DNA of 64,000 nucleotides, from positions 4,586 through 68,585 of IMG/VR virus record IMGVR_UViG_3300031993_000061, one strand, 5' to 3'. The position numbers and the translations under genes are program-made. The notes below the pieces were generated by a model. It saw nothing but the letters and a program-made list of their open reading frames with translations, was not told the origin of the DNA and ran no database searches. This DNA comes from a virus. Lineage: Duplodnaviria; Caudoviricetes. Shown here in pieces: positions 28,823 through 56,023 of this stretch (its first letter is position 1; the number at the start of each line of letters is the position of its first letter).

Positions 28823-29020
28823 ATGGCTGATAAGAAATACACAACAGAGGAAGTATTTGATTACTTCTTTGATAAATATAACGACGGCGATTTGGAACAT
28901 TCCCTCGATGTGGCTTCTGAAAAGACAAGATAGTATATCCAAAAGCACGGTATGGACGTTGAGGAATGGAATGAATTTATCGACAATAACGGATTAGAAG
29001 AGAGTTATAAATTAAGATGA
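28823..29020 (+). CDS. Small hypothetical protein, 65 aa with TAG=Gln (TAG at 28931)
   Basis: GAGG RBS; read-through reaches a TGA overlapping the next ATG. Confidence 0.6.
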
Positions 29021-31303: not shown

Positions 31304-31366
31304 ATGTATTTAGCCGAAATGGAATATCCAAAAATTCGGTGGGTTGACAAATCACATATGATGTGA
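31304..31366 (+). pseudogene. Remnant 5' end of a DUF29-like gene, truncated at an early promoter
   Basis: MYLAEMEYPK resembles the starts of 31461 (MQLNEMSYPR) and 33409 (MYLTEMAYSR). Confidence 0.5.
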
Positions 31367-31372
31367 TATAAT
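31340..31372 (+). promoter_or_regulatory. Early-type promoter upstream of the tRNA cluster
   Basis: TTGACA 31344-49, TGA-TATAAT 31367-72. Confidence 0.85.
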
Positions 31373-31937: not shown

Positions 31938-32012
31938 GCCCCGTTGGCGCAAAGGTAGCGCACGAGATTTGTAATCCCGTGGTTGTCCGTCCGAGTCGGA
32001 CACGGGGCTCCA
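31938..32012 (+). tRNA. tRNA-Thr(UGU)
   Basis: GCCCCGT/ACGGGGC acceptor stem, loop TTTGTAA, encoded CCA; atypical T-loop TCCGAGT. Confidence 0.88.
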
Positions 32013-32292
32013 ACTGCTTGTTTGAATAATCCACTAAGAGAACAAGACTTATCAGATGAAGGATTACATCGTGGATAAGGGTGACGGCTAAGGCATAAAT
32101 CCGTCAATGTGAGATACCATTTATTTTTTCTTCCTAAATCTCACGAACAACATTATCTCCGCAAGTTAGCAAATGGCGAGCAAATATTGTTGTACAACAA
32201 TATCGCAGAAACCACTATAATGCACCGTGAGTCCGGACATACTAATAGTCGTGTGCTGATGTGGAATAACGGCATTCGTGCGGAGATATTAT

Positions 32293-32366
32293 CGAGAATG
32301 TAGTGTAATGGTAGCACGCCACATTTGGGATGTGGAAGAGCCGTTCAAATCGGACATTTTCGACCA
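32293..32366 (+). tRNA. tRNA-Pro(UGG)
   Basis: CGAGAAT/ATTTTCG acceptor stem, CCACA-TTTGGGA-TGTGG anticodon arm, A73, CCA. Confidence 0.9.
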
Positions 32367-32416
32367 TCTTGGTGTGTTATTCTACAAAAATAAAATCAAA
32401 GAAAAGAAAACACAAA

Positions 32417-32848
32417 ATGAGTAAGCACGACAAAAAATATCAATTAAAAGAGGGTTGTATTTATAAACCACAGTTGCTTTCTAACTTTTCTTTACATATC
32501 GACACCGATGACGACGTTGGTGTGTTAAATAAAAGTTTGGTAAGCGTTCATCTTCCAATCAAGAACTTCGGCGATGTTCAGTCAGGTTGTGGAGAACTTG
32601 GGTTGCAGTTTATTGATTTCCCTGAACTTCATACCTATTCGGAAGCGTACAATCTTGCGAATAATATTGTGAATGGCGCGGTAGACCACCTTGAGGTGAT
32701 TGCCTACAATGGAGACTGGTCGCCGAATACACGGTATTGTATCAAACTTGGACATCTTGCCTCGTTGAGTTCTAACGCTTTTAAGCAGGCAGAAGGATAC
32801 CACTATATCTATCTTGACATATCCGTTAAGGATATGACGATTAAGTAA
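32417..32848 (+). CDS. Hypothetical protein within the tRNA cluster
   Basis: 143 aa ORF. Confidence 0.6.
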   Translation: MSKHDKKYQLKEGCIYKPQLLSNFSLHIDTDDDVGVLNKSLVSVHLPIKNFGDVQSGCGELGLQFIDFPELHTYSEAYNLANNIVNGAVDHLEVIAYNGDWSPNTRYCIKLGHLASLSSNAFKQAEGYHYIYLDISVKDMTIK

Positions 32849-32879
32849 CACAACAATAGAAATAACACACCAAATATAT

Positions 32880-32969
32880 AGACGGTTACCCAAGTGGTTA
32901 AGGGAGCGGGCTTTGACCCCGTCAGATGTAATATCCTTTGCGTAGGTTCGAGTCCTACACCGTCTGCCA
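32880..32969 (+). tRNA. tRNA with UUG (Gln) anticodon and a long class II-type variable arm
   Basis: AGACGGT/ACCGTCT acceptor stem, GCGGG-CTTTGAC-CCCGT anticodon arm, 19-nt variable region, G73, CCA; 90 nt. Confidence 0.85.
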
Positions 32970-33192: not shown

Positions 33193-33266
33193 TGGGGTGT
33201 CGTTTAATGGCAAGACTTGGCGCTCTAACCGCCATAATGTCTGTTCGATTCAGACCGCCCCCGCCA
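33193..33266 (+). tRNA. Amber suppressor tRNA(CUA), Gln-like
   Basis: TGGCG-CTCTAAC-CGCCA anticodon arm; unpaired U1-C72, G2-C71, G3-C70 and G73 (Gln-type); T-arm GTCTG-TTCGATT-CAGAC; CCA. Confidence 0.93.
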
Positions 33267-33408
33267 TAGAAATTATTTAGGGGCTTTGTACTTAATAAGC
33301 GTGTTTATTATTTGATAAAGCATTTTACAAAGCGTTGGGTTTTAAGGTTTTAATGTATTGCCACTAATGGGGCTTTGTAAAAACAAATTGTTTTATACGA
33401 GGTATCAT

Positions 33409-33870
33409 ATGTATCTTACGGAAATGGCGTATAGCCGAGACAATGCTATTGAGTATGTAAGGGATGTTCTTCCCGAGATTAAGGAACATTTAATCAAATG
33501 TATTCTGTATCAAGACATGACTGACACGGTATCGCATTGGATAAATACAGAAATAACGCCGGATATTTATGATATTGCGACAATCAAGACAAAAACGCCT
33601 CGTGGTAAACTAACGGAAAACGATTACATTACACTTTTCATAGAGTCATTTAATGATGATGTAGAAGATGCCGCTCGTGACATGATGAGTTTTTACCGTC
33701 ATAATCGGCGTAATCCAGAGTATCCAATCCGTGTACCAACGGAAGAAAATGCACAAAAGTTGGCGCGAGTCTACGATTATTTTAAGACGCAGTTTTCCAA
33801 AAACTTCTCTGAGAAGACAACGTTGACAAAAGAACAAATCAATCAGGTAATGTGGGGGCTTCTTGCATAA
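33409..33870 (+). CDS. DUF29-like protein (tentative)
   Basis: EMAYSRDNAI..IKEHLIKCILY..SHWINTEI pattern. Confidence 0.55.
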   Translation: MYLTEMAYSRDNAIEYVRDVLPEIKEHLIKCILYQDMTDTVSHWINTEITPDIYDIATIKTKTPRGKLTENDYITLFIESFNDDVEDAARDMMSFYRHNRRNPEYPIRVPTEENAQKLARVYDYFKTQFSKNFSEKTTLTKEQINQVMWGLLA

Positions 33871-33877
33871 TAAATCT

Positions 33878-34345
33878 GCTTCCGTGGCGGAATAGGCAGA
33901 CGCAACGGACTTTCTTCCTATCAGACAATAAAAGAGAGCGTCATAATGGAAACATTATGAATGAATGTTGGCTAAAACGGCGAAAGGATAGGACAACGCC
34001 GTGCTAAATTGAATAATTAGGTGCTACGACAGACCGCCTAACGTAACCTTTGATATGGTGCGGGTTAGTGAAACGCTGTAGTTAAATGGGATTTGAGAAA
34101 CAGCCAATTATTCATAAATGTGTAGAGACGATACACCAACTACCTAAGTCAAAAGATATGGTAAAGACATAGTCCAGACCACAACGCTAAGAAAACGTAA
34201 GTGAGAATCTTACCTTCGCCGAGGTGCGATGTAGTGACGAGTACATGATGAGACAAGAACGTCTTGGTGGCTATGGCAACATAGTGTGGTAAGAAAATCC
34301 GTTGACCGAAAGGTCGTGTGGGTTCGATTCCCACCGGAAGCACCA
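33878..34345 (+). tRNA. trnL: tRNA-Leu(UAA) split by a group I intron (exons 33878-33912 and 34294-34345)
   Basis: Joined exons give GCTTCCG/CGGAAGC acceptor stem, ACGGA-CTTAAAA-TCCGT anticodon arm, long variable arm, A73 and CCA. Confidence 0.92.
33913..34293 (+). mobile_element. Group I intron (381 nt, no ORF) between U34 and A35 of tRNA-Leu
   Basis: Follows a U and ends in G; P4 AACGGCGAAA/AACGCCGTGCTAAAT, R-like TGTAGAGACGATA, S-like AAGACATAGTCC. Confidence 0.9.
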
Positions 34346-34436
34346 GAGCGAGATTGTGAGCAAATGAAAGCCACTCGCGTTGTCTCAAAAAATGGCATAT
34401 GTGTCCTCGCGATAAGGTTAATCGCCCAAATATCAT

Positions 34437-34508
34437 GCTTTCTTAATTCAACGGGAGAAGGGCCTGCGGTTGCGGCGCCAGTTGTGAGTTCGAGTCTCAC
34501 AGAAAGCA
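34437..34508 (+). ncRNA. tRNA-like element with an irregular anticodon arm
   Basis: GCTTTCT/AGAAAGC acceptor stem and GTGAG-TTCGAGT-CTCAC T-arm; bulged stem with a 9-nt loop; no encoded CCA. Confidence 0.55.
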
Positions 34509-34676
34509 ATAGAGCCAAAACAATAAGGAAGCGCTAAAAGTTGATGTATATCTGCTGATGGCCACAGCGTATGCCAGTTAAGCATAAACAACTGATATAC
34601 TAAAGACGAAAAGATATTGTTTTGGCACACCTATCCTCGGTTCGCATAACTGTTCATCGCACAAAAAGAAATTCCG

Positions 34677-34709
34677 TGGGTTGACAAGTCCGCTCCATTG
34701 TGGTATAAT
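34677..34709 (+). promoter_or_regulatory. Early-type sigmaA promoter
   Basis: TTGACA 34681-86, TGG-TATAAT 34704-09. Confidence 0.85.
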
Positions 34710-34740
34710 GATAATACCGAATGAAAGAGAGGTTTGAAAT

Positions 34741-35013
34741 ATGCTTACTGCAAAACAGAGAAGGTCAATCCGTCATAGAATCGCAACGCTCAATAGTCGT
34801 ATGTCGCTGATGGCGATGATTGCGTTTGCGTGTATCCTTGCGTCTGCGTTAATTTGCGAATGGAACATCGCCGTATCTGCGGTTTGCCTTGTGCCTGCGC
34901 TTATCTGTTGCGTTATATATGTCAAAACAGAAAAAGAGGCGCAGAAACTCGAAGATATCCTCTATGACGATGATACAGAGAGACTGCACGAGACGACCGA
35001 TAGGTCAGAATAA
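34741..35013 (+). CDS. Small two-TM membrane protein
   Basis: GAGAGG RBS; two hydrophobic segments. Confidence 0.7.
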   Translation: MLTAKQRRSIRHRIATLNSRMSLMAMIAFACILASALICEWNIAVSAVCLVPALICCVIYVKTEKEAQKLEDILYDDDTERLHETTDRSE

Positions 35014-35050
35014 AACGGTTATCGCTTTACCGTATAGGGCGCAATTATAT

Positions 35051-35104
35051 TGAGATGTGTGTTGGTACACATAATAGCAGGTTCAATCCCTGCCATCTCA
35101 ACCA
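35051..35104 (+). ncRNA. 54-nt mini-tRNA-like RNA (acceptor stem, one hairpin, T-arm, ACCA)
   Basis: TGAGATG/CATCTCA 7-bp stem, TGTGT-TGGT-ACACA hairpin, GCAGG-TTCAATC-CCTGC T-arm, A-CCA end. Confidence 0.75.
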
Positions 35105-35108
35105 AATA

Positions 35109-35224
35109 GCGACACACAGTTTCGCGTGGTTCTGTTGTGTTGCGACTTCATTTCATCTCTCCTTTCATTTCTCACCTCCTCCTTTCTTTTATTCAACTAC
35201 TTCCCATTCCATCAAAAACCACGC
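35109..35224 (+). ncRNA. Candidate pseudoknotted sRNA displaying anti-SD/anti-AUG tracts
   Basis: Stem 35109-19/35132-43; loop GCGTGGTT (35124-31) complementary to AACCACGC (35217-24); the enclosed pyrimidine tract includes TCACCTCCTCCTTTCT. Confidence 0.6.
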
Positions 35225-35231
35225 CATTAAC

Positions 35232-35290
35232 AAAGTCAACTCGCGTTTTGGGATTCGTGGGTTGACTTTTTGTTATATCTATGATATAAT
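35232..35290 (+). terminator. Terminator hairpin overlapping the -35 of the next early promoter
   Basis: AAAGTCAAC..GTTGACTTT plus T-tract; TTGACT 35262-67, TATAAT 35285-90. Confidence 0.7.
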
Positions 35291-35320
35291 AGTATCAGAA
35301 AAGAAAGAGAGGGTTTGTCC

Positions 35321-35788
35321 ATGAAACTTGTCGATGTTATCAATCAGATTAGCGGAAAGAAGAATGGTACTTGGTTCTCCGTCAAGTACAAGAGCCATCC
35401 TGCCGTTAAGGCGTCATTCAAGAAACTTGGTATCACCGTTGTCAAGTATAGCGACAATGTGGTGCGCACAGGTGTTGCTTATGACAATATCGGCTCGGTT
35501 ATCCGCAAGAAATCTTCTGCGGACTATGTACCTGCTCCCAAGAGAGAGAACAACAACGAGTGGGTTATTCCGAACAAGATTCTGTTCAATAACAACACCA
35601 ATAAGTATGCCGTTCGCCTCGGCTTCTGCAACGGCCACAAGGCAAAGGTTTCCTACAAAGCATACGATGTCAACGGTAACGAGATTCCGTTTGACAAAGA
35701 CTACGTGATTGATTCCTATTGGAACAAACCGACCACCGACCTCTCCGTTATGAATATCGCAATCGACAACATTGTGTCGATTGGTTGA
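35321..35788 (+). CDS. Hypothetical basic early protein
   Basis: GAGAGGG RBS; single-gene unit between promoter and terminator. Confidence 0.75.
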   Translation: MKLVDVINQISGKKNGTWFSVKYKSHPAVKASFKKLGITVVKYSDNVVRTGVAYDNIGSVIRKKSSADYVPAPKRENNNEWVIPNKILFNNNTNKYAVRLGFCNGHKAKVSYKAYDVNGNEIPFDKDYVIDSYWNKPTTDLSVMNIAIDNIVSIG

Positions 35789-35800
35789 TAAGCGAAATAG

Positions 35801-35842
35801 AAAACAGCCACCAAAATGGTGGCTGTTTTTGTTGTATAATTT
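35801..35842 (+). terminator. Terminator immediately followed by a putative late promoter
   Basis: AAAACAGCCACC/GGTGGCTGTTTT hairpin; TGTATAATTT 35833-42. Confidence 0.8.
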
Positions 35843-35918
35843 AGTATGAATTGAAAGAATCCACTGTATGAGCGGACATTCTACATATATCAGAACAAGA
35901 GGACAAAAACAGAAACAG

Positions 35919-36359
35919 ATGGATGCAACAATTTGGGTCGCTATCGTTACAGCAATCGCCGCCGTGCTTGTGGCTGTTATTAACGCTTACGGAAAGGGAA
36001 AAGCAAGGCGCGAAGATTTAGCCGAGCAGGAAAAGGCCATCGAGAAGCACTTTGAAGATACCATGAAACAACTCGAAGAAGATAAACGTGAGTATCTGCA
36101 ACGCGCTTCCGAACAAGTGGAAAAACTCGACGAAATCATTAGGGGCAACGAAGAATTGAAAGAAGGCACTATGCAGTTGCTCGGTAGCGAAATCGACAGA
36201 GTTTATTTTAAGTATAAGGGAAAGGATTCCATTCCTTTATCGGAGTATCAAAACATTAAACAAATTTTTGAAATCTACGACAAACTCGGCGGTAATGGAG
36301 AAAGGCGCAAGCATTGGCTTCAAATCGACCATTTACCAGTCGTAGATGACGAAAAGTAA
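35919..36359 (+). CDS. Membrane-anchored coiled-coil protein (lysis-accessory-like)
   Basis: N-terminal TM IWVAIVTAIAAVLVAVINAY; C-terminal YKGK..YDKLGGNG pattern. Confidence 0.6.
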   Translation: MDATIWVAIVTAIAAVLVAVINAYGKGKARREDLAEQEKAIEKHFEDTMKQLEEDKREYLQRASEQVEKLDEIIRGNEELKEGTMQLLGSEIDRVYFKYKGKDSIPLSEYQNIKQIFEIYDKLGGNGERRKHWLQIDHLPVVDDEK

Positions 36360-36392
36360 GTTGTACGACGAAGTAGTCAAGGACTAATCGAA

Positions 36393-38396
36393 ATGGATAA
36401 CAGAGCATAGCAAATTTTAGCAGGGTTGTCAGAAGAAGAGAAAAAATAGGTTCTTGCCATTTTGGCTGAGTATCAGAAGAATGGTAATTCTGAACAATTC
36501 AATGAAATCAAGTATGCCGATTATGATGAGATTCCAGTTGACATCAATACCTTTATGCGAGATGAAGAATATCTCGGCAAGGGTCTTATTGATGAAAACG
36601 GAAGATTCACGGTGTTCCCATATTGGGTCAAAACATTAAATCAAATTTTTCCAACCAATGTTGATACCGCATATAATACATTTGTTGCCACGGGAGGCAT
36701 TGGTCTTGGGAAGTCGTTTGTATAGGTTATCTGCGGTATCTATATTCTCTATCGTTTAATGTGCTTAAAAAATCCATATACTTTCTATGGATTACAGCCG
36801 ATAGATATTATCACATTTGCCTTTATGAATATTACCATAGAGGCCGCAGAGGGCGTGGCTTGGAGCAAATTCCAACAGTTAGTACAGTCGTCTCCATGGT
36901 TTATGAAAAGAGGTACTATTACCGGAACTACCAACTTGGTATGGAATCCCCCAAAAGGAATCGAACTGATTTATGGTTCGAGAGATACACACGTACTTGG
37001 CCGTGCCGTGTTCTGGGGAATGGTTGATGAGTTAGATTTCCAACAGAACAAAGACTTGGAGCAACAGCGAGAAAAGGCACGCAAAATTGTTTCTGCACTT
37101 GCGCGAAGAATGGAATCGCGTTTTATGAAAGGGAACAAAAATCCCACGCTCTTATGCCTTGCTTCTTCTAAGACAGATTAGCAGGCGTTTATTGAGCGCT
37201 ACATTGAAGATAAGCGCGGCAAGGGTAGTAAGACAACTCTTATTGTAGATGAGCCGTAGTGGGTAATCCGTGACGATAAGGACAGTCCTATTAAGTTCCG
37301 TGTTGCCGTTGGTAATAAATTTCTTGAATCCGAAATTATCCCTGACAATGTTGTTGATACAAAGTCGTATTTAGATAGAGGGTTCAGCATATTAGAAGTG
37401 CCGTCAGGTTATCGAGAGTCCTTTGAAGATAACCTTCCAAAGGCGTTACAAGAAATTGCAGGCATAGCGACAAGCGGAACAAACCGTTATCTGCTTGGCG
37501 CAAGAATACAAGAGGCAAAGAACTACGCATTACAAAACCCATTCAGTTCAGATGTTATTGAGTGCGGTTTGAATACAGACAATCAGTATTACGAATGGTT
37601 TGATATTTCAAAAATTGACCCTGCTATGAAAAGCAAACCGCTGTTCATACACCTCGATATGTCTGTGTCTGGTGACAAGACGGGTATTGCCGGTGTGTGG
37701 ATAAGAGGTAAGCGGCCTACAAGAAATGGCGTTCCTTCTAATGACCTGTACTATCAATTGGCGTTTGGCGTCTCCGTGAAAGCACCGAAAGGATATCAAA
37801 TCTCATTTGCCAAAAACAGAGAGTTTATCTACTGGTTAAAGCAATAGGGTTTTAATATCAGAGGAATTTCAACAGACTCATTCCAAAGTGTGGAAACTGG
37901 CCAATCATTACAGCAGGGCGGATTTAACTATAAGATGATTTCTGTCGATAGGGTTGATTCGCAAAGCCGTACTTGTTTGCCGTATCTTACGATGAAGAAT
38001 GCCATTTATGAAAAAAGACTTGCTCTCATTGACATTCGGTTGATGACGGAAGAGATGGTTGGTCTTGAAATTGACGCAAATGGTCGTGTCGACCATAGCC
38101 CATCTGGCATCAATTCGAAGGATTTATGCGATGCTATCTGCGGTGCAACATATCACGCTTCTCAACACGCAGAAGAGTATGCGTTAGAGTATGGTGAGAA
38201 TTTGATTGAACAAATTCCGCAAGTAAACCGTTCTTCCATCGAAGAACAACATTCGGATATTCAAAAAGAATTTGAAGCGGCGTTGCGACAGCAATTCAGT
38301 TAGCAATATCGCGAACCTCAATCTATGTTCAGCCCAGAAGTAGAGCGCAGATTGAAAAGGCAAAGACAGATAAATAACGGTATTTTGGTTTGGTAA
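36393..38396 (+). CDS. terL: Terminase large subunit, 667 aa with 7 TAG codons read as Gln
   Basis: One frame throughout, with TAGs at 36408, 36447, 36723, 37179, 37257, 37845 and 38301. Walker A TGGIGLGKS, Walker B GMVDE, RNase H-like IHLDMSVSGDKTG, ISTDSFQS and SKDLCDA; directly precedes the portal gene. Confidence 0.92.
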
Positions 38397-38401
38397 AATA
38401 A

Positions 38402-40081
38402 ATGGAAGATATTTTTGATAAACGTATTATTACGGTGCCAGTACAGCCGAAGAACATTGGTGTTGATACGAATGACGAGGTTGTGAAAAAGGTCGCCGAA
38501 GGAGAAGAAGCCACAGGTTTAAGTCAGTTATCTACCATCTCGATGGATAGAGATATGGCTTATAATCAGATTGACGATATGTGTAGTGACAGCCGTATGG
38601 CGTCCGCACTCGAAGCGTATGCCGAGGAAGCAACTTGTATCGGTAACGACGGCCGTATCGTCTATGTCGATTCGATGGATACCGATGTTGCCAAAATGGT
38701 AACGCATTTCCTCGATGCTATGGATATCGACAAGTATATCTATTCGTGGGCGTACTCTCTGATTAAATATGGCGATGTTTATATTCGTATGTACCGTCGT
38801 TCGGACGTTGAGCCGGATTATATGCGGAATAGAAAATTAGACGAAACATTGGAAGTCAATTATTATAATAAGAATGTTGACCCCTATGTTGACTACTGCG
38901 AGCAGATTTTGAATCCTGCCGAAATGTTTGAGTTAAAAAAATTCGGCAAAACATACGCCTATATTCAATGTCCGATTGCTTCTCTGAATGTCAACCAAAG
39001 AGACAAAACACGCCTTGCCTATATGCTTCAACGCACAAGGGATACCGGTGATGTGAAACTGTTTCAACCGACAGAGTTTGTACATGGTTGTCTGAATCAG
39101 TCATCGTCTCGCGTGGCGGAAACGCTCCAAATTTTTGACGATGAAACAGAAGGCGGAGATATTTATACTGTCAATAGAGGACAATCGCTGTTCTATAATG
39201 TCTATCCATTATGGAGACAAATGCAGTTGCTTGAAAACTCTATGCTGTTAAATCGTATCAACAAGAACGCCATTTTACGGTTGCTGACTGTTGAGGTTGG
39301 TAATGTTCCGTCAGAAGAGGATGCCAATTCGATTGTTTCTGCAGTCGCTAATATGTTGCAGACGAAGATGTCTATCAGCACAAAAACGATGTCGAATCTG
39401 TATTTGTCTGACAGTCCAACAGTCAACTACGCCGTTATGCCGACCAAAAATGGCGCAGGCGCCGTTGGATTCCAAGACATTGGTGGTACGACTGGCGAAT
39501 CGGAAAACCTCGACGACATCAATTATTATCGCGATAAGTTATTCGGCAGTTTGCGGTTACCAAAGCAAATGTTCGGAGAAACAACAGGTGATAGCGCTGG
39601 TTTTGACGCAGGTGGCTCGTTAGCACAGCAGAGTCTACGGTTCGGAAAGGCCGTGCGCAGAATCCAGTCTGTTCTGATTGACACAATTACCGATATGATA
39701 AACCTCCGTCTGTACGATAGAGGGCTTACGAACTATATCGACAAATTCTTGATTAAAATGCATTTCCCCATTACGCAAGAAGACACCGTCAACCAAACCC
39801 ATAGAAAAGAACAAATCGACCTTGTTCTCCGTATTATGGATTCGTTGGAAGGTGTTGCCGAGGGTAGTGCAAGACTTACCATTCTCCGTTATCTGCTGTC
39901 GACGGTTATCGACGACGCCGATGTGCTTACCGCTATTCAGTCCGAACTGGAAGAGCAGTCTGAAACCGCTGAACAAAAAGAGGAAATAGCAGAAGAAGAG
40001 CAACGAGAGGAACAAGAAGAAGAAAGGCCTCGCGGAGGCCTTAATGCCGAATCTCCGGAAATAGAAGAAATAGAGCCGTAA
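38402..40081 (+). CDS. Portal protein (T4 gp20-like)
   Basis: LIKYGDVY, RQMQLLENSMLLNRI, VEVGNVP, LDDINYYRDKLFGSLRLPK and LRFGKAVRRIQ. Confidence 0.88.
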   Translation: MEDIFDKRIITVPVQPKNIGVDTNDEVVKKVAEGEEATGLSQLSTISMDRDMAYNQIDDMCSDSRMASALEAYAEEATCIGNDGRIVYVDSMDTDVAKMVTHFLDAMDIDKYIYSWAYSLIKYGDVYIRMYRRSDVEPDYMRNRKLDETLEVNYYNKNVDPYVDYCEQILNPAEMFELKKFGKTYAYIQCPIASLNVNQRDKTRLAYMLQRTRDTGDVKLFQPTEFVHGCLNQSSSRVAETLQIFDDETEGGDIYTVNRGQSLFYNVYPLWRQMQLLENSMLLNRINKNAILRLLTVEVGNVPSEEDANSIVSAVANMLQTKMSISTKTMSNLYLSDSPTVNYAVMPTKNGAGAVGFQDIGGTTGESENLDDINYYRDKLFGSLRLPKQMFGETTGDSAGFDAGGSLAQQSLRFGKAVRRIQSVLIDTITDMINLRLYDRGLTNYIDKFLIKMHFPITQEDTVNQTHRKEQIDLVLRIMDSLEGVAEGSARLTILRYLLSTVIDDADVLTAIQSELEEQSETAEQKEEIAEEEQREEQEEERPRGGLNAESPEIEEIEP

Positions 40082-40105
40082 ATTTAAGGAACAAAAAGGA
40101 CTATT

Positions 40106-40525
40106 ATGATTATTACAAGACAAGATTTACTTACTATCGTAGCCGATAATGCGGAACTTATCAGACAGGTTTATGAAAATCCAGAATCTGTTCTGAAACA
40201 ATGTAAGCAAAACGGTGCATTAGAAATTTTCAACTTTTACGATTATTGTCGAAAGAGTTACAATCAAAAACATTCAAAGATTTATATCAACATCGTTAAA
40301 GAGGTTGAAGAACCAAAAAAGGTCTTGACAACACTCTCCGCACTGATTACGCAGATTCTTTTATTTGCCGAGCAGTCACAACATAGGGACATTTTCCTTA
40401 GACAGTCTCGTCTGAATGAGATTATTCGTGTCATTCAGAATTATGTCGAAAACAGAGACCTTACCTATGCAGTTAAGTTAATCAGAGACATCAGGGACGA
40501 TGTGAAATTTCTCGAAAATCTTTGA
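40106..40525 (+). CDS. Hypothetical head-module protein
   Basis: 139 aa ORF between portal and protease genes. Confidence 0.7.
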   Translation: MIITRQDLLTIVADNAELIRQVYENPESVLKQCKQNGALEIFNFYDYCRKSYNQKHSKIYINIVKEVEEPKKVLTTLSALITQILLFAEQSQHRDIFLRQSRLNEIIRVIQNYVENRDLTYAVKLIRDIRDDVKFLENL

Positions 40526-40526
40526 T

Positions 40527-40578
40527 TGTATAATTTAGGTATAAGACAACGATTCACGGAACAATTCTTGTATAATTT
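40527..40578 (+). promoter_or_regulatory. Tandem putative late promoters upstream of the protease and capsid genes
   Basis: TGTATAATTT at 40527 and 40569. Confidence 0.6.
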
Positions 40579-40633
40579 TGTGTATTGATAATTCCGATGC
40601 TGTTGGCAACGGAAAATCGTAAGGATAAATGTA

Positions 40634-42409
40634 ATGGAAAAAATTGGATTAACAAGCGATACGCTTAATATCTCCAAAGACACGCCGATAAACATTAACG
40701 GTTCGCCGGTGCTTTGTACATTAGAGGGAGTTATTGCGGATTTCAAAAATCCAACTCGTAATGGAAGATTTTATTCCAAGCAGTTATGGGAAAAGGCGCT
40801 GAAATCTGATACCATCCAAGAGCAGATTGCCAACGGTGGTATTATGATGGAGTTGAACCACCCGGAAGATAGAGACGAAACGGATTTGTCTTGTGTGGCG
40901 GCCATTATGCCTGAATTACCGAAAGAAACGGACGACGGCAAACTCATCGCAAAGGTACACGTTATTGATACTCCAATGGGTAAGATTGCTAACACGCTTG
41001 CTCGTTATGGATATAAACTCGGCATTTCCAGTCGTGGTAACGGCGATGTCGATTACAGAGGTCAAGTGGTAGAAGACACCTATCAACTTCAATGTTGGGA
41101 TTTGGTGGCTATGCCTGCCGTTAAGGATGCGCGGTTAAGTCTCGTAACAGAATCGCTTCACAAACCATCCTTAACAGAATCGTTAAACAAAATTGTAGAA
41201 CAGTCCAGTGATGATGACAAGAAAGTCATTATGGAAAAACTGGCGCAGTTAAATATTACGCTAACGTCAGAAAACACCGACGAAGCAAGGGAAGTTTCCA
41301 TACCCGTCGAGGTAGAAACATCTGACAATGGGGATATTACGGTATCGCAACTTGAAAAGCCGATTATTGCCGGTTCTGACAAGTTTAACGAATTGACAGA
41401 TGCCTATCCCGAAATCACCATTACCGCAGAAGTAATGGATGACGCACGTGAACAGATGGAAACCAATGCGGAAGATGTGGAAGCGGAAGTTGCCGACAGT
41501 AATGTCGATAACGGTGTATCTGATGATGCCATAGATGTAGGGATTGAGACAGGCGAGAAAGCCGATGATGTCGGAGACCCGTTAATCAAAGACCTGCAAG
41601 AATCTCTGAAAGAAAGAAACGAACTTGTAAAGGCAAACGATGAATTGCAATCTGCTTTGTCAGTTGGCTATGCCAAGGAACAGCAACTAACGACGGAATT
41701 AAACCGTTGCAAGTCCAAGATTCAAGAACTCGTCGAATCCACGAAAGTGGTGGTCGGTTTACGAGCAAGGAGTAATAAACTTGAAGAGAACGTAAATCAA
41801 CTCTCGGAATCTCTGAAAGATAGTCAGCAATCTAACACGAAACTTACTAAAACTGTCAACGTACAGTCGGCAAGTATTCGTCAGTTAGAGAGATTAAAGG
41901 AACATCACGACAAAGAGCGCGTAAATACGGCTCGCAAGTTATCCGAATCCACCAATACTATCAAGAGATTACAAGACGAACTGCAAAAGCAAAGGAAACT
42001 GTTTGAAAACAAACTTTCCGAAACCAAAAAGTCTGCGCAAGATGAGTACAGCACTAAGTTAGAAACGGTGAGCAACGAAAACAAGTCGCTCATCAATGAA
42101 AACGAAATGCTGAAAACGAAACTTGACAAACTTTCCGAGGCGTATGCGCATTCTGTTTGTGACGCTTATGACGTCGATTATGACTTGGTGGCTGATACCG
42201 CAAAAAACGGCACACCATCCGAGGTAAAGAAACTTGCAGAGTCGCTTGCTCGAAGAAGGGTTGTTGAAAACAGACTTCCCTTTACCAATAATTCCGTCAA
42301 GAAAATCAATTACATCAGACCTGCCGATAACATGACGGAGCGTCGTTATCGCAATAGCGACGATATAGGAATCGACGAGGTCGAACAATTCAAACATTAC
42401 GAAAGGTAA
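40634..42409 (+). CDS. Prohead core protease (T4 gp21-like) fused to a coiled-coil scaffold-like region
   Basis: RNGRFY, ELNHP, DTPMGKI, GISSRGNG and WDLVAMPA; long coiled-coil C-terminus. Confidence 0.88.
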   Translation: MEKIGLTSDTLNISKDTPININGSPVLCTLEGVIADFKNPTRNGRFYSKQLWEKALKSDTIQEQIANGGIMMELNHPEDRDETDLSCVAAIMPELPKETDDGKLIAKVHVIDTPMGKIANTLARYGYKLGISSRGNGDVDYRGQVVEDTYQLQCWDLVAMPAVKDARLSLVTESLHKPSLTESLNKIVEQSSDDDKKVIMEKLAQLNITLTSENTDEAREVSIPVEVETSDNGDITVSQLEKPIIAGSDKFNELTDAYPEITITAEVMDDAREQMETNAEDVEAEVADSNVDNGVSDDAIDVGIETGEKADDVGDPLIKDLQESLKERNELVKANDELQSALSVGYAKEQQLTTELNRCKSKIQELVESTKVVVGLRARSNKLEENVNQLSESLKDSQQSNTKLTKTVNVQSASIRQLERLKEHHDKERVNTARKLSESTNTIKRLQDELQKQRKLFENKLSETKKSAQDEYSTKLETVSNENKSLINENEMLKTKLDKLSEAYAHSVCDAYDVDYDLVADTAKNGTPSEVKKLAESLARRRVVENRLPFTNNSVKKINYIRPADNMTERRYRNSDDIGIDEVEQFKHYER

Positions 42410-42414
42410 ACATA

Positions 42415-45400
42415 ATGGCTTCTTTACTCGAAAAGTACCAGAATCGTCTTACTCGTGCTAACAACGAGTACAAGTCGAGAACTGGTCGTCAACTCACCGA
42501 GTCCAAGAAGATGATGACTGCCGCTATTCTTGAGAATACCGCCGCTTTCCTCAACTTCAAAGCTCGTCAAATGAACGAAGCGCTTGACAATTCTGTCGGC
42601 GTTCAAACCACAGACATCGGCTAAATTAAAAATGGCCGTTTAAGCGGTAACGCTTAAATAAATCTTTGATAATTTCAAAGAGAAAACCCTGTGAATTCGG
42701 TGAAACTCTTGTGTGTTTACGAATTGCACACAAGACAATACCGAGCCAAGATGGTGTAAAAACCATAAGGCGTAACGACTATCGAAAGCATAAATATAGA
42801 AGAAATATCTATATGAGAAGCAAGTAGAGTACACTCAAAGTTGAGTGGAAGTGCAGGGCATCTTGATAACGGTAATAGAAATCAAGATGAAGAGATAGTC
42901 TGAACACTATGGTGACATAGTGAGAACAAACGGAAACGGTTTGTTCGTAACACAATTGCTTTCAAGAAATTCGTTCTTGATATCACCGAGGCGTCTCTCC
43001 CGAACCTCGTCGCTCCTGAACTTGCTATGGTCGTTGACCTCCCGCACAAGACTGGTTGGATTCTGTATCGTAAGTATACTGCCAACAGCCGTAAGGGCGT
43101 CCGTCTGAGCGATGGTACATTTGCTGACCCGCAGACCATGAACACCACCAGCGCCTTCCCTGCCGACAAAGACGTCCTCTTCGGTACGCTGAAGAACGGC
43201 CGTCCGCAGAGCGAGTACACCTCGTCTGTTGTCGAGATGGGTTCTGTCGCCCTCTCTTCTACTGCTACCACTCTCCGTTGGTCTCCTATCGTCAAGGGTT
43301 CTATCTTTGCCGAGAAGAGCGACACATTCTATGTTGATGGCGGCGATGGATTCCTCTATTCGTTTGCCAAGGCCACATACCACGTCGAAAAGGTTAATGG
43401 CGTTCGCCACATCATCACCACCGCTACCGGTGTTGAGGTTGCTCCTACCGATGGTACTAAGGATTCTTCGTCCGAAATCAAGTACGGTTCGTTCCGTGAT
43501 TCGATGTATGCAGACACTGGCGCCACTACCGTTTTCGGTTCTATTAAGACTGGCTCGTCCATTACAGTCGACCTCGAATATCAGTACAACAACGAATTCG
43601 TCCCTAAACATTCTTGGGGCAGTTTTGAACAGAGGATTGCGGCTTAAGTAAATTTGAATGAAGTAGAAACGATACGTAATAAATAATGGGTCAAATATAA
43701 AGTTCATATATGATACCACACATATTCCTGACGGTTGGAAGTTGGGTGGTTTACCGACAACAAGCGGTCGTATATGGATAACAAATGGTGTCGACCAAAA
43801 GACAATCGAAAAGACTGATACCATTCCGGACGGTTGGAAAAAGGGTCGATTAAAAGCCACAGAAACGGCAAAACGGAATATGTCAAAATCACACATCGGA
43901 GAAATCAATATAACAGATGGTGTGAACGAACGACATATTAAAAGCGGCGAATCAATACCATACGGATGGCGCGTCGGCAAGTCGGATAAAATGAAATCAA
44001 AACTTTCACATTCGACAAAAGGACGATACAACATCACGAATGGTAGTGAAATGAGACACGTCAGAACGCTTGATAATATTCCGAGCGGATGGCGAAGAGG
44101 GAATGTCGATGTTTCGGAAGAAACAAGAAGGAAACTTTCCATTACATCATCTTCCGAACATAAGAAAGCCTCAGAGATTAATACAAAGAGAAAAAACAAC
44201 AGTTTCTGTAAGTCTACACCAGAAGAAATTTATTACAACCGTCTGATTGAACAATATGGTCGCGACGATGTATTTAGACAGTACCGCGACGAAAGATACC
44301 CATTTAATTGCGATTTCTACATCAAATCAAAAGATATGTTCATTGAATGCAATTTTCATTGGACGCACGGAAAACATCCATACGACAGCAATTCCGCAGA
44401 GGATTAGAACAAAGTCCAAATGTGGAAAGAAAGAATCGATAAAAGCAAATTTTATCGAACGGCGATTTATGTATGGACTGAATTAGACGTGCGCAAGAGT
44501 GAAATTGCAAAACGAAACAATCTGAACTTTCAAGCAGTATATCAACTCTGATTCAACTGAAACACTCCGTGAACTGCTGGAAACTCTTATATGTTATGGA
44601 ATGGCATATAAGACAATCAGCAACCAAGCCCATTAAAAAATGGGAAGGTTCAACGACCATCGAAAGTATATCAACCGAGAAACACGGTTGAGAATAAACG
44701 AGTAGAGTACACCACAGTGTGGTGGAAGTGCGGAGAACATACACAAGGATAAAACAAATGTATGTTATGATATGGTCTCACCTTTATAGTGATATAAAGA
44801 GAATGGTTGGACACGAACCATTCGCAAGATATGTGCAGAATGACATTCCTCTTATCGGCGTGACAGACGAGGGTATCCAGCTCAATGCTAAACCTCGTAG
44901 AATCGCCATCTACTTCTCGCAACTTGCCGCCTTTGAAGCCCAGAAGGATTACGGCCGTGACCTCGGTGCTGAACTCCGTGAGCGTGCCGCCTTTGAGATT
45001 CAGAAGGAAATCGATAATGAGGTTGTTGAGAAAGTTATCGCTTGTGGTAATGCCAATACTGCCAACACCGTCAGTTGGTACTCGGTTGCCGACCTCGGCG
45101 TGACCAAGAGAGACCATTACGAGACTCTTGCTGTTGCTCTTGCCGATGCCGACGCCGCTATGTATAACGCCACCGAGAAGTACAGCGGCACTTATCTCCT
45201 TTGCGGACCTAAGGGTATGCGTTTCTTCTCGATGATGAATGGCTTCAAGGCGCTCAACGCCAACCGCTTTGGCTTTGGTCCTTATGTCGCTGGCGAACTC
45301 AATGGCCACAAAATCATCGTTACGCCGATTATCCGCGACGAAGCGATGTATGTCGGCGTGAACACCGCTGACGCTTCTGCCGTTCTGCTCGGCATCTACA

Positions 45401-45564
45401 TGGCTGTTGCTCCTACTCAGCTTGTGGAATTTGCTGACGGTGGTAACTCGCAGGGCTTCTCTACGCTGTATGACTGCGTAGTCATCAACCCCAATCTTGT
45501 CGTTAAGATTAACGTCATTCCTGAGCGCGAACCCGTCACAATCACCGTTGACGACGGTGAATAA
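42415..45564 (+). CDS. Major capsid protein (T4 gp23-like), 527 aa after splicing (exons 42415-42622, 42959-43605, 44836-45564)
   Basis: Exons join in frame (..TTDIG-S-FKKFVLDI..LPNLVA..; ..NNEFVP-QNDIPL..). Gp23-like LNAKPRRI..QLAAFEAQKDYG.D..AAFEIQKEIDNEV..GFSTLY. Confidence 0.88.
42623..42958 (+). mobile_element. Group I intron 1 of the capsid gene (336 nt, no ORF)
   Basis: P1 CGGCU/GGCCG with a U-G pair at the splice site; GAATTCGGTGAAA/AATACCGAGCCAAG; AAGAGATAGTCT; terminal G. Confidence 0.9.
43606..44835 (+). mobile_element. Group I intron 2 of the capsid gene (1230 nt) with an endonuclease ORF 5' of the catalytic core
   Basis: Follows a U and ends in G; CATTCT can pair with 3' exon AGAATG (P10); core GAACTGCTGGAA/AATCAGCAACCAAG, TTCAACGACCAT, GATATGGTCT. 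Confidence 0.88.
43658..44551 (+). CDS. Intron-encoded putative homing endonuclease, 297 aa with TAG=Gln (TAG at 43664 and 44405)
   Basis: Repeated (W/N)ITNG..IPxGWxxG NUMOD-like modules, then a Vsr/DUF559-like YRDERYPFNCDFY..FIECNFHWTH domain. Read-through restores the C-terminal FYRTAIYVWTELDVRK. Confidence 0.8.
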
Positions 45565-50182: not shown

Positions 50183-50617
50183 ATGCAAAAATATGATATC
50201 TATTATGTCTCAATGTCTTATGTATAGGACAGAATTGTCTCGGATAATCCAAGAACGAAGAGACGACCGTGTGTGATTAAAGAAATCTATGATGATACTG
50301 TTGTCTTAATGGCCATGATTACATCTAAACGACATCAAAATCAGTATGAGATACGCGATTGGCGAGACGCAGGCCTAACAAAACCATCGTACATCAATTA
50401 TGCTGTTGAGTAGAAATATCAGAAAAAAGATATTAAGCAGAACGATTATGTCGGACATTTGTCTGCTTTCGATATACATCGTATTAAATCACAGCATCTT
50501 GATGAAGATTTCGACCCCAACGGTCATTATACGGAAGACGGCGTTTTTGTTCCAAAGCATGACCCAATCACCGGCATCCCGCTGATACCGAAAGATATTT
50601 GGGATATGTGGGACTAA
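50183..50617 (+). CDS. PemK/MazF-like endoribonuclease, 144 aa with TAG=Gln (TAG at 50225 and 50411)
   Basis: KYDIYYVSMSY..TKRRPCVI..MAMITSK..IRDWRDAGLTKPSYI..VGHLSAFD; absent from the standard-code ORF track. Confidence 0.72.
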
Positions 50618-50732: not shown

Positions 50733-51200
50733 ATGCGACAAAGATTATGTGAAGCAACCATATACGATATTAACCGAAGATTCGGTAATAATATCCGTGT
50801 GTAGAGAAGCAAGAAATACTCTGTACGTATTAAAGAATATCTGTTAGACCCACTTTATATTATCTTTGAGGTAACTGGCGGAACAAAGCCGTATGAAGTT
50901 CATGTGGCTTTTGAAAAGGTTGCGCCAAAAACCGTATCGGCTCTGAAAAATTCTCTGAAAAACGGTCAGGTCAAAATCAGTTGCGCGTGCAAAGATTTCG
51001 CATACAGATTTAATTACAGCGCCACGAAGAACAACTTCTCTCTTGGTGGAGAACACAGACCGTCGAATATTACCAATCCGAATGATTCGCTTGGTCCTGC
51101 TTGTAAACACGTGGCGGCCGTTTTGAAGAATACAAACTGGGTATACGCATTGATGGCCGATATGAAGAAAACAGAACGCAAAGAGGACGAGAAGAAATGA
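50733..51200 (+). CDS. SWIM Zn-finger protein, 155 aa with TAG=Gln (TAG at 50802)
   Basis: VTGGTKPYEV..ISCACKDFAYR..CKHVAAVL; upstream promoter 50670-50701. Confidence 0.75.
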
Positions 51201-55426: not shown

Positions 55427-56023
55427 ATGGCAAGAATTGTCAATTCTCCATTAAGTGCCTCGACTGTTAATTTTCAGTATTTGTCAGGCGGCTCTTTGTA
55501 GACGCTCACACTTGACGCCACAAGTTTTATGGGTGGTGGCGGAGCAACGTACAGCGCAGGTAGTGGCCTTACGCTGAATGGAACGACATTTTCCGTTGAA
55601 TCTACGATTTATGGAAAGATGACTTCTATGCCCGCCTTTGGTTCGAACAGCAGTTATTTTCTCGCGAACAACGGTACTTGGCAGTCGATTCAAGCGTAGC
55701 CAGCCATCGTATTTACGGCGTCCACAACGTCTTCCGGTACGATGACTTTATCAGACGGAGCAAATGTGCTTAGCATCTATAATGCCGCATCTACCGGTCA
55801 GCCCGTTTATATCTATTGTAACGTATTTGATGCCATGGGTGGCAACGCCATGTGGCATATAGACAGATGTACGTCTATGGCTGGCATTAGCGCCATTATG
55901 TTGTATGGCGCCGCCGTGATATATGGCGTGTCTACCCAACTTAAAATGCGTGCCGTTTACGGGACGTATACTTCGACAGCCATTACCTTGACGACGGCAG
56001 ATTTTACCATGACAAATTCTTAA
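55427..56023 (+). CDS. Tail fibre / adhesin-like protein, 198 aa with TAG=Gln (TAG at 55499 and 55697)
   Basis: Read-through gives TYSAGSGLTLNGTTFSV and YFLANNGTWQ; S/T/G-rich; joins the 55742 ORF. Confidence 0.7.

What the first reader, a model, noticed from the sequence alone, without database searches (positions are those of the whole stretch)
33193..38396. TAG reassigned to Gln with a phage CUA suppressor tRNA; terminase carries 7 of the 20 TAGs
Seen: 20 in-frame TAGs in 9 genes (tail fibres at 368 and 55427, 10148, 28823, terL x7, capsid-intron endonuclease, MazF-like, SWIM, 57153). Read-through restores continuous frames and motifs, and supported genes end in TAA or TGA. Replication, nucleotide-metabolism and early genes have no internal TAG. 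The suppressor has Gln-type identity (unpaired 1-72, G2-C71, G3-C70, G73, loop CTCTAAC). Established: code-15 gut phages exist. Inference: with TAG at terminase codons 6 and 19, DNA packaging is gated on the code switch, whereas portal, protease and capsid are not.
Basis: partly seen in the sequence, partly recalled or inferred. Interest (0 to 1): 0.78.

Follow-up and report, generated by a model that had tools for sequence, protein, structure and literature searches.

The report
Phage that reads TAG as glutamine
This phage fragment reads the stop codon TAG as glutamine using its own suppressor tRNA, and its DNA-packaging enzyme cannot be made without that read-through; the case is real but belongs to an already described kind of gut-phage recoding.

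Summary
A canonical cloverleaf tRNA with anticodon CUA lies at 33193-33266. The large terminase gene (36393-38396) has 7 in-frame TAGs and no TAA or TGA, yet is homologous over its full length to 110 intact terminases. Two of its TAGs fall on invariant or near-invariant Gln columns. In the closest relative (76% identical, also TAG-recoded), TAG and CAA swap at four positions. The tRNA body is Gln-type: a pattern taken from its acceptor and D arm retrieved 97 tRNA-Gln among 98 bacterial tRNAs. That this "gates" packaging is inferred; tolerance of a poorly read codon in a low-copy enzyme fits equally well. No release factor or GlnRS was found, but the record is a fragment. TAG→Gln recoding, its late-gene bias, phage suppressor tRNAs and mixed codes within one clade are all published (Borges 2021, Peters 2022, Babkin 2023). 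This is a new member of a known kind.

The parts
33193..33266 (+). Suppressor tRNA, anticodon CUA, Gln-type body, encoded CCA end
   Evidence: ARAGORN. Rfam tRNA, 45.3 bits. Sequence read. A pattern from its acceptor and D arm retrieves 97 tRNA-Gln among 98 bacterial tRNAs. It is 68-78% identical to bacterial tRNA-Gln.
36393..38396 (+). Large terminase subunit gene (667 codons) with TAG at codons 6, 19, 111, 263, 289, 485 and 637 (nt 36408, 36447, 36723, 37179, 37257, 37845, 38301); ends in TAA
   Evidence: tblastn to annotated phage terminases. 110 full-length homologs at 53-77% identity, Pfam PF27249 precomputed. Codon-level comparison with L001.
31938..32969 (+). tRNA cluster just upstream of the suppressor: Thr(UGU) 31938-32012, Pro(UGG) 32293-32366, and an unusual 90-nt tRNA(UUG) at 32880-32969
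31344..31372 (+). Perfect sigma-70-type promoter with extended -10 (TTGACA-17-TATAAT, TG), the nearest one upstream of the tRNA cluster
   Evidence: There are 17 near-perfect sites in the window, all on the + strand, against 0.74 expected.
50733..51200 (+). SWIM zinc-finger gene, TAG at codon 24 (nt 50802)
   Evidence: Pfam SWIM. The ortholog in L001 aligns from residue 1 and has Q opposite the TAG. The relative's own TAG80 lies opposite Q here.
50183..50617 (+). MazF/PemK-like gene, TAG at codons 15 and 77
   Evidence: PHROG 1936 (E 9e-6, residues 1-101) and a weak PemK match (residues 4-102) span both TAGs. Coding score is positive in all three segments.
55427..56023 (+). Structural-block gene of unknown function, TAG at codons 25 and 91
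   Evidence: The ortholog in L001/L002 aligns over residues 1-137. Codon 25 lies in a conserved stretch, opposite S.
57153..58103 (+). Gene of unknown function, TAG at codon 191
   Evidence: Coding score is 0.43 before and 0.46 after the TAG. Code-11 calls on a 128-kb ENA contig split it into 190 and 116 aa in the same frame.
43658..44551 (+). Homing-endonuclease-like ORF inside the second group I intron of the major capsid gene; TAG at codon 250 (verified) and codon 3 (doubtful)
   Evidence: tblastn to Lak phages covers residues 142-297, running through codon 250 to the C terminus. Intron found by Rfam RF00028.
10148..10675 (+). Conserved gene of unknown function in the nucleotide-metabolism block; TAG at codon 19 (verified) and codon 173 (2 codons before TAA, ambiguous)
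   Evidence: Homologs in Tenacibaculum phage pT24, a Vibrio phage and phage C48C1 align from residue 3 or 4 across codon 19, where they carry E, K and a gap.
28823..29020 (+). Small acidic ORF, TAG at codon 37; unverified
   Evidence: The read-through ORF ends in an ATGA overlap with the next gene at 29017. No homolog was found.
425..1396 (+). Tail-fibre-like gene; TAG at 1295-1297 is plausible, TAG at 422-424 is probably outside the gene
   Evidence: No family match.
38402..45564 (+). TAG-free morphogenesis genes: portal 38402-40081, prohead protease 40634-42409, and the major capsid gene in three exons (about 42415-42612, 42958-43605, 44836-45564)
   Evidence: Pfam Portal_T4, Peptidase_S77 and Gp23. 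TAG counts. Exon mapping against the intact capsid gene of L001.

Best explanation
The window is a fragment of a large tailed phage with T4-type portal, prohead protease and capsid genes. The same genes lie on a 128-kb contig. The phage uses genetic code 15: TAG is a glutamine codon, and TAA and TGA are the only stops.

Shown:
- The phage encodes a tRNA with anticodon CUA.
- That tRNA's acceptor stem and D arm are those of bacterial tRNA-Gln.

Inferred:
- The host Gln-charging system loads this tRNA with Gln.
- The tRNA then competes with host release factor 1 at TAG.

Consequences. Genes carrying TAG yield full-length protein only once enough suppressor tRNA is present. These are mainly low-copy genes of the structural block: terminase x7, a SWIM protein, a MazF-like protein, an intron endonuclease and tail-region genes. 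Most replication and nucleotide-metabolism genes, and the abundant portal, protease and capsid proteins, contain no TAG at all. They are read identically under either code.

Terminase therefore depends absolutely on read-through. Whether that dependence is a selected timing or dosage device, or a by-product of weak selection against TAG in a low-copy enzyme, is open.
For: Read-through in terL:
- 7 TAG, 0 TAA and 0 TGA in a frame homologous end to end to intact terminases.

Meaning of TAG:
- TAG289 lies on a column that is Q in 110/110 homologs; TAG485 on one that is Q in 103/110.
- The mean Q fraction at TAG sites is 0.28, against 0.35 at the CAA/CAG Gln sites of this gene and a background of 0.046.
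- The closest relative (L001/L002, terL 76% identical) is itself TAG-recoded. Only one terL TAG position is shared, and TAG and CAA swap at codons 35, 289, 485 and 624.
- Over 9 ortholog pairs and 25 unshared TAG sites, the opposite residues are Q 7, D 5, N 3, E 2, K 2, H 2. The binomial p is 1e-4, and the BLOSUM62 sum is best for Q, then E.

The tRNA:
- A CUA tRNA is found by two methods.
- A 16-base pattern drawn only from its own acceptor and D arm hits bacterial tRNAs that are 97/98 tRNA-Gln.

TAG is not a stop here:
- All 97 retained genes end in TAA (63) or TGA (34).
- TAG is almost absent from the 55-gene early block, while a standard-code relative ends 4/16 genes in TAG and a TGA-recoded relative 5/16.

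Distribution:
- TAG/(TAG+Gln codons) is 0.017 in the early block and 0.065 in the late block (Fisher p 0.003).
- terL against portal+protease+capsid is 7/43 vs 0/66 (p 0.001) here, 6/38 vs 4/79 (p 0.08) in L001, and 14/35 vs 3/50 (p 0.0002) in L218.

Family context:
- Of 83 terL relatives, 69 have no in-frame stop, 11 have in-frame TGA (26 of 37 opposite W) and 3 have in-frame TAG.

Published precedent:
- Code 15 in gut phages with late-gene bias (bioRxiv 10.1101/2021.08.26.457843).
- Proteomic proof of TAG=Q in crAss-like phages (PMC9523058).
- TerL with TAG at conserved Gln positions in phAss-1 (PMC10607447).
Against: - TAG111 falls on a column that is Ala in 105/110 homologs (GCT in the closest relative), just after the Walker A motif. 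Gln there is unexpected.
- The endonuclease TAG250 lies opposite Ile in its Lak homologs.
- No protein data exist, so the inserted residue is inferred.
- The tRNA has a U1.C72 mismatch where all the bacterial tRNA-Gln retrieved have U1-A72. How it is charged is unknown.
- No release factor, GlnRS/GluRS or other code-change gene is on the record or in the Pfam calls for the next 10 kb of the longer contig. However, the record is only about 35% complete by CheckV.
- Host and host code are unknown.
- At least one gene in the early block (10148) carries a verified TAG, so the early/late split is not clean.
- Whole-window coding density does not separate code 15 from code 11 (0.857 vs 0.898, no better than reassigning TAA or TGA), because there are only about 25 TAGs.
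Confidence: 0.88

Rival explanations
1. TAG is read through but as an amino acid other than Gln. One route is Glu, via a non-discriminating GluRS without amidation. Another is mixed decoding.
For: Glu is the second-best fit at TAG sites (BLOSUM62 sums of 30 vs 36 pairwise, and 2.9 vs 6.6 on the terL columns). D, E and N together account for 10 of 25 opposite residues. TAG111 sits on an Ala column and endonuclease TAG250 on an Ile column. The U1.C72 mismatch departs from the U1-A72 seen in every bacterial tRNA-Gln retrieved.
Against: An invariant Q column (110/110) and a 94% Q column coincide with TAGs. TAG and CAA swap at four terL positions, and again in the SWIM and 35868 orthologs. The tRNA body is Gln-type. 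Mass spectrometry showed TAG=Q in other phages (PMC9523058).
Confidence: 0.07
2. The recoding is real, but the TAG load of terminase has no timing function. TAG is simply a poorly decoded codon. It drifts in from CAA/CAG wherever selection on translation efficiency is weak (low-copy enzymes, selfish endonucleases, accessory genes). It is purged from early genes and from abundant structural proteins.
For: TAG-free late genes have the highest codon-bias scores (capsid exons 0.51-0.52, 49124 0.53, 51197 0.54, 54404 0.59). TAG-bearing genes score lower (terL 0.26, endonuclease 0.14, SWIM 0.25). TAG positions turn over fast: 1 of 12 terL positions is shared with a relative that is 76% identical. 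The relative's protease has 4 TAGs while the window's has none. The suppressor lies downstream of a consensus host-type promoter, which gives no sign of delayed expression.
Against: terL is the most TAG-rich of the neighbouring morphogenesis genes in all three TAG-recoded members examined, including one only 47% identical. That is also what selection for TAG in terL would give. Published work argues for a regulatory role in other clades (10.1101/2021.08.26.457843).
Confidence: 0.45
3. The TAGs are damage or error: a decaying phage, a chimeric assembly, or sequencing artefacts. On this view terL is a pseudogene.
For: The record is a single metagenome-derived fragment. TAG111 replaces a near-invariant Ala.
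Against: All internal stops are TAG; there are no TAA or TGA and no frameshifts. The same genes occur on independent contigs, including one of 128 kb. Two other lineages show the same pattern. A matching suppressor tRNA is encoded 3 kb upstream.
Confidence: 0.02

Closest known systems
Code-15 (TAG to Gln) gut phages: crAss-like, Lak and the 'gemstone' clades of Borges et al. (bioRxiv 10.1101/2021.08.26.457843); proteomic proof in PMC9523058
   Same: In-frame TAG in structural and late genes, aligned with Gln in homologs. A phage-encoded tRNA(CUA). Replication genes mostly free of TAG. An intron homing endonuclease carrying recoded stops. Clades that mix codes 11, 4 and 15.
   Different: This lineage has T4-type portal, protease and capsid genes and a PF27249-type terminase, and I could not assign it to a named clade. 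No code-change module (aaRS or release factor) is seen on the fragment. Here the bias toward TAG is strongest in terminase, whereas that paper emphasises lysis genes.
phAss-1 / proposed Phassvirus (PMC10607447)
   Same: TerL is broken by TAGs that fall on conserved Gln positions. tRNA-Sup(CTA) genes are predicted to be Gln type. No dedicated aaRS is encoded.
   Different: phAss-1 is a 136-kb siphovirus-type genome with 3 suppressor genes and TAG in 28% of its ORFs, portal included. Here only about 10-15% of ORFs carry TAG and the portal has none. No nucleotide similarity to any phage record was found.
supE-type amber suppressor: tRNA-Gln with the anticodon changed from CUG to CUA (E. coli genetics; from my own knowledge)
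   Same: A Gln-type tRNA body with a CUA anticodon. U35 and the acceptor-stem identity set (weak 1-72 pair, G2-C71, G3-C70, G73) are retained.
   Different: Phage-borne rather than a host mutant allele. It has a U1.C72 mismatch rather than U1-A72, and it serves genes that require it.
Theta (HDV-like) ribozyme-associated suppressor tRNAs of recoded gut phages (PMC10879173)
   Same: A suppressor tRNA inside a phage tRNA cluster next to recoded late genes.
   Different: No HDV-like ribozyme was found next to this tRNA (Rfam E-value mode). The tRNA also encodes its own CCA, which only 4.5% of theta-associated tRNAs do.

Membership tests
TAG-to-Gln recoded phage (genetic code 15) | In-frame TAG inside conserved genes whose homology continues across the TAG | tested here: met
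   terL x7, SWIM, 55427, 10148, the intron endonuclease and the MazF-like gene.
TAG-to-Gln recoded phage (genetic code 15) | TAG positions align preferentially with Gln in homologs | tested here: met
   Invariant Q at 289 and 94% Q at 485. Q opposite 7 of 25 unshared sites (p 1e-4). Q gives the best substitution score. Exceptions: an Ala column at 111 and Ile opposite the endonuclease TAG.
TAG-to-Gln recoded phage (genetic code 15) | Phage-encoded suppressor tRNA with anticodon CUA | tested here: met
   33193-33266.
TAG-to-Gln recoded phage (genetic code 15) | The suppressor tRNA is of glutamine type | tested here: met
   The acceptor and D-arm pattern retrieves 97 tRNA-Gln among 98 tRNAs. G2-C71, G3-C70 and G73 are read from the sequence. 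Charging itself was not tested.
TAG-to-Gln recoded phage (genetic code 15) | TAG is not used as a terminator; genes end in TAA or TGA | tested here: met
   63 TAA and 34 TGA. At most 1 of 55 early-block genes could end in TAG, against 25-31% in relatives using code 11 or code 4. A few C-terminal TAGs remain ambiguous.
TAG-to-Gln recoded phage (genetic code 15) | Peptide evidence for Gln at TAG | not testable with these tools
   Needs proteomics.
TAG-to-Gln recoded phage (genetic code 15) | The host uses the standard code | not tested
   The host is unknown. Consensus sigma-70 extended -10 promoters and Gram-positive-type lysin domains in a relative hint at a Bacillota host, but no more than that.
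Phage 'code-change module' (suppressor tRNA + aaRS + release factor; Borges et al.) | A release factor and/or cognate aaRS encoded next to the suppressor tRNA | tested here: not met
   No RF-1, PCRF or tRNA-synt_1c match on the 68.6-kb record, and none in the Pfam kb beyond the window on the 128-kb contig. The rest of the genome was not seen.
Pyrrolysine decoding of TAG | A tRNA-Pyl architecture, and Lys-like residues at TAG columns | tested here: not met
   The tRNA fits the general tRNA model over its full length, with a normal GG D loop and a TTCGATT T loop. The TAG columns are Q, not K. ARAGORN's 'Pyl' label comes from the anticodon alone.

The most novel reading that the evidence does not exclude
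Terminase is a preferred carrier of amber codons in this phage family. In three TAG-recoded members, the large terminase gene is several-fold richer in TAG than the adjacent portal, protease and capsid genes. At least two of the three are far apart (47% terL identity), and TAG positions are almost entirely unshared. On this reading, selection keeps terminase dependent on suppressor level. Genome packaging then starts only when the code switch is complete, which acts as a translational checkpoint separate from the lysis-gene bias already described.
Probability: 0.25. Interest if true: 0.5.

Novelty: new member of a known kind. Interest (0 to 1): 0.3.

Why it matters
The practical point is annotation. 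Under the standard code the terminase, an intron endonuclease and about ten other genes of this phage are chopped into fragments. That is how they were called on a 128-kb public contig, where one gene appears as separate 190-aa and 116-aa products.

The window also adds a lineage with T4-type head genes to the list of code-15 phages. One terminase family (at least 44% identity) contains standard-code, TGA→Trp and TAG→Gln members side by side. That makes it a convenient natural series for studying how recoding arises.

The repeated TAG enrichment of terminase relative to neighbouring head genes is a small, testable addition to the idea that recoding times late functions. None of this changes the known picture.

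Tried and rejected
- Whole-window coding density under code 11, compared with TAG, TAA or TGA read as sense, did not discriminate. There are too few TAGs.
- Close relatives were not found by a peptide-pattern scan of viral contigs with the single protein, nor by blastn against phage records. The alignment-based scan did work.
- An exact 15-mer of the suppressor's anticodon arm found 17 viral stretches, none of them a tRNA, so these were chance matches.
- No HDV-like or theta ribozyme lies next to the tRNAs.
- The genome search could not reach the Logan relative or draw relatives of a virus record.
- Two look-ups of genes from the start of the record, meant to view the upstream part of the 128-kb contig, found nothing on record. 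A first attempt had wrong coordinates.
- The records holding the L218 and L219 relatives contain no tRNA, and both are fragments.
- A D-arm pattern from the odd 90-nt tRNA(UUG) was not diagnostic: it hit Cys, His and Gln tRNAs, and none had a long variable arm.
- Pyrrolysine, pseudogene and assembly-error readings were considered and rejected (see rivals and membership test).
- The search of earlier findings returned nothing for this genome.

Full report
**What the window is.** The window is bases 4586-68585 of a 68,585-bp IMG/VR virus record. The record is linear, and CheckV puts it at about 35% complete. Nearly all genes are on the + strand. Family scans give the following:
- an anaerobic ribonucleotide reductase (6526-9462) and a primase-helicase (24891-26813) in a replication and nucleotide-metabolism block;
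- a tRNA cluster at 31938-33266;
- a head-and-tail block with large terminase (36393-38396), T4-type portal (38402-40081), prohead protease (40634-42409) and a gp23-type capsid gene;
- a DnaE-type polymerase from 60402 onward.

The same genes occur on a 128,448-bp ENA contig, where they were called in the standard code and are therefore fragmented.

**Checking the observation.** A 74-nt tRNA with anticodon CUA lies at 33193-33266. ARAGORN finds it, and the Rfam tRNA model scores it at 45.3 bits over its full length.

With TAG read through, the frame 36393-38396 is a 667-codon ORF with TAG at codons 6, 19, 111, 263, 289, 485 and 637 and no TAA or TGA. Its product matches annotated phage terminases over 87-95% of its length. 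It also matches 2,494 database proteins, and the best 120 are 53-76% identical over nearly the full length.

- Fourteen are supported by homology that runs across the TAG: terL x7, SWIM codon 24, 55427 codon 25, 10148 codon 19, intron-endonuclease codon 250, and MazF-like codons 15 and 77. The fourteenth is 57153 codon 191, which rests on codon usage and on two same-frame ORFs in a code-11 call on another contig.
- Three are plausible but unverified.
- Three are doubtful. The TAG at 422 is probably upstream of the real start of the tail-fibre-like gene. The TAG at 10664 is two codons before a TAA. The TAG at 43664 is codon 3 of the endonuclease ORF.

More credible TAGs lie on the same record upstream of the window.

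**What TAG means.** In an alignment with 110 full-length terminases, TAG289 falls on a column that is Q in 110/110, and TAG485 on one that is Q in 103/110. The mean Q fraction at the seven TAG columns is 0.28. At the 36 ordinary Gln codons of the same gene it is 0.35, and the background is 0.046.

The closest relative is a 79-kb Logan contig (L001/L002) with terL 76% identical. It is itself TAG-recoded, with six TAGs in terL. Only codon 263 is shared. Window TAG289 and TAG485 are CAA in the relative, and the relative's TAG35 and TAG621 are CAA here. The SWIM ortholog and the gene upstream of terL show the same reciprocal TAG/Q pattern.

Over nine ortholog pairs there are 25 unshared TAG sites. 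The opposite residue is Q 7 times, D 5, N 3, and E, K and H twice each. The chance of 7 or more Q is 1e-4. Q has the best BLOSUM62 sum, followed by E.

Two sites do not fit. TAG111, just after the Walker A motif, is on a column that is Ala in 105/110 homologs. The endonuclease TAG lies opposite Ile in its Lak-phage homologs.

**What kind of tRNA it is.** I avoided relying on remembered identity rules. I took a 16-base pattern only from the suppressor's own acceptor 5' strand and D arm and scanned bacterial genomes with it. Of 120 stretches returned, 98 are tRNA genes that begin exactly at the match, and 97 of those are tRNA-Gln (50 UUG, 47 CUG). The suppressor is 68-78% identical to them. They all end with A72-G73, whereas the suppressor has C72.

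So the body is Gln-type with a one-base anticodon change, like a supE allele (this comparison is from my own knowledge). The 1-72 mismatch, and how the tRNA is charged, remain open. No HDV-like theta ribozyme flanks it (compare PMC10879173). It follows tRNA-Thr, tRNA-Pro and a tRNA(UUG) downstream of a perfect TTGACA-17-TGnTATAAT promoter at 31344.

**Is TAG still a stop?** All 97 retained genes end in TAA (63) or TGA (34). That is partly by construction. However, in the 55-gene early block TAG is almost absent in any role: at most one gene could end in it. By contrast, a standard-code relative (L147) ends 4 of 16 genes in TAG, and a TGA-recoded relative (L146) ends 5 of 16 in TAG.

**Distribution of TAG.** TAG as a share of TAG+CAA+CAG is 0.017 in the early block and 0.065 elsewhere (Fisher p 0.003). 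The early-block figure is inflated by N-terminal artefacts. The split is not absolute, since the gene at 10148 next to the reductase has a verified TAG.

| Genome | terL, TAG/(TAG+Gln) | portal+protease+capsid | Fisher p |
|---|---|---|---|
| window | 7/43 | 0/66 | 0.001 |
| L001 | 6/38 | 4/79 | 0.08 |
| L218 (terL 47% identical) | 14/35 | 3/50 | 0.0002 |

In L218 no capsid gene was held, so that comparison covers portal and protease only.

At the same time, the TAG-free late genes are those with the strongest codon bias. TAG positions turn over quickly. The relative's protease carries four TAGs.

The data therefore fit two readings about equally well. One is selected dependence of packaging on the code switch. 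The other is tolerance of a weak codon in a low-copy enzyme. The word 'gated' goes beyond the evidence.

**Family context.** An alignment-based scan of viral contigs returned 80 terminase relatives. Together with three contigs fetched through protein look-ups, 69 have no in-frame stop. Eleven have in-frame TGA, with 26 of 37 opposite Trp in the window's protein. Three have in-frame TAG. One terminase family thus holds codes 11, 4 and 15. Borges et al. report the same for four of their eight clades (10.1101/2021.08.26.457843).

**Code-change accessories.** No release-factor or GlnRS/GluRS-type domain is on the record, and none appears in the Pfam calls for 10 kb beyond the window on the longer contig. 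With roughly half or more of the genome unseen, this says little.

**Comparison with what is known.**
- TAG→Gln recoding in gut phages, suppressor tRNAs, late-gene bias, recoded intron endonucleases and mixed-code clades are described in 10.1101/2021.08.26.457843.
- Gln at TAG was shown by mass spectrometry in PMC9523058.
- A terminase broken by TAGs at conserved Gln positions is described for phAss-1 in PMC10607447.

The window meets every sequence-level criterion for a code-15 phage that I could test, and it lacks a code-change module on the part seen. It is a new member of a known kind. The only mildly new element is the recurrent TAG enrichment of terminase.

Noticed in passing
window 42415-45564: The major capsid (gp23-type) gene is split into three exons by two group I introns. 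Rfam RF00028 scores 73.0 bits at 42613-42922 and 70.8 bits at 44463-44799. Comparison with the intact 556-aa capsid gene of L001 puts the exons at about 42415-42612, 42958-43605 and 44836-45564. In both introns the 3' splice site lies about 35 nt beyond the end of the Rfam model. The second intron carries the TAG-bearing endonuclease ORF, whose 3' end overlaps the ribozyme core.
   Followed up: partly
window 60402-63998: A DnaE-type DNA polymerase III alpha gene (PHP and DNA_pol3_alpha domains in the calls on the 128-kb contig) is interrupted by a third group I intron at 61547-61850 (75.6 bits). The 213-aa ORF at 61913-62554, between the two polymerase pieces, has no family match.
   Followed up: no
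window 33903-34188: A sub-threshold group I intron match (39.2 bits against a gathering score of 50, E 8e-8 in the local search) lies between the suppressor tRNA and the terminase, in a stretch with only short, low-scoring ORFs.
   Followed up: no
window 32880-32969: A 90-nt tRNA with anticodon UUG (Rfam 56.1 bits) has a 16-nt insertion in the variable region. That is unlike any of the 116 bacterial tRNA-Gln retrieved here (72-77 nt). Its acceptor stem is A1-U72, G2-C71, A3-U70, with G73. A D-arm pattern search hit Cys, His and Gln tRNAs and did not settle its identity. Which amino acid it carries is unclear.
   Followed up: partly
window 34437-34508: A tRNA-like element found by Rfam only (38.7 bits), not by ARAGORN. 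The acceptor, D and T arms are good, but the anticodon arm folds as a long stem with a 4-nt loop. It may be a decayed tRNA or a tRNA-like signal.
   Followed up: no
window, 17 sites from 3363 to 60368, all + strand: There are 17 near-perfect sigma-70 promoters (TTGACA-17-TATAAT, at most 1 mismatch), mostly with the extended -10 TG, against 0.74 expected by chance. They occur in both the replication and the structural blocks (for example at 48399 and 49060, before highly codon-biased tail genes). Transcription therefore seems to rely on the host's primary sigma factor throughout, which hints at a non-Bacteroidota host.
   Followed up: partly
L146, L150, L209, L212-L214, L216, L223-L226 (terL relatives): Eleven relatives of this terminase carry in-frame TGA, mostly opposite Trp (code 4). 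L146 (61% identical) has all five of its terL TGAs opposite Trp and ends 5 of 16 genes in TAG. Sister lineages of the window phage have thus been recoded in the opposite direction.
   Followed up: partly
window 36723-36725 (terL codon 111): This TAG replaces an Ala that is conserved in 105 of 110 homologs (GCT in the closest relative, three base changes away), directly after the Walker A GKS motif. It is the one terL site where Gln looks out of place.
   Followed up: no
window 33280-33290 and 33369-33379: The 11-mer GGGGCTTTGTA occurs twice, 89 nt apart, just downstream of the suppressor tRNA and around the start of the next ORF. There are no other exact copies in the window.
   Followed up: no
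window 45684-47021 and 58929-60362: Two free-standing HNH or homing-endonuclease genes (PHROG 3339 and 559; DUF4379 treble-clef repeats), each preceded by a consensus promoter. Together with three or four introns, they make this genome unusually rich in selfish elements.
   Followed up: no
record upstream of the window (G000:C1 4266-5002) into window 1-417: A gene that, by synteny with the Pep_deformylase gene called at the matching place in the relative L002, looks like a peptide deformylase. It ends at window 417 and overlaps the long ORF of the tail-fibre-like gene. I did not scan it against families.
   Followed up: no
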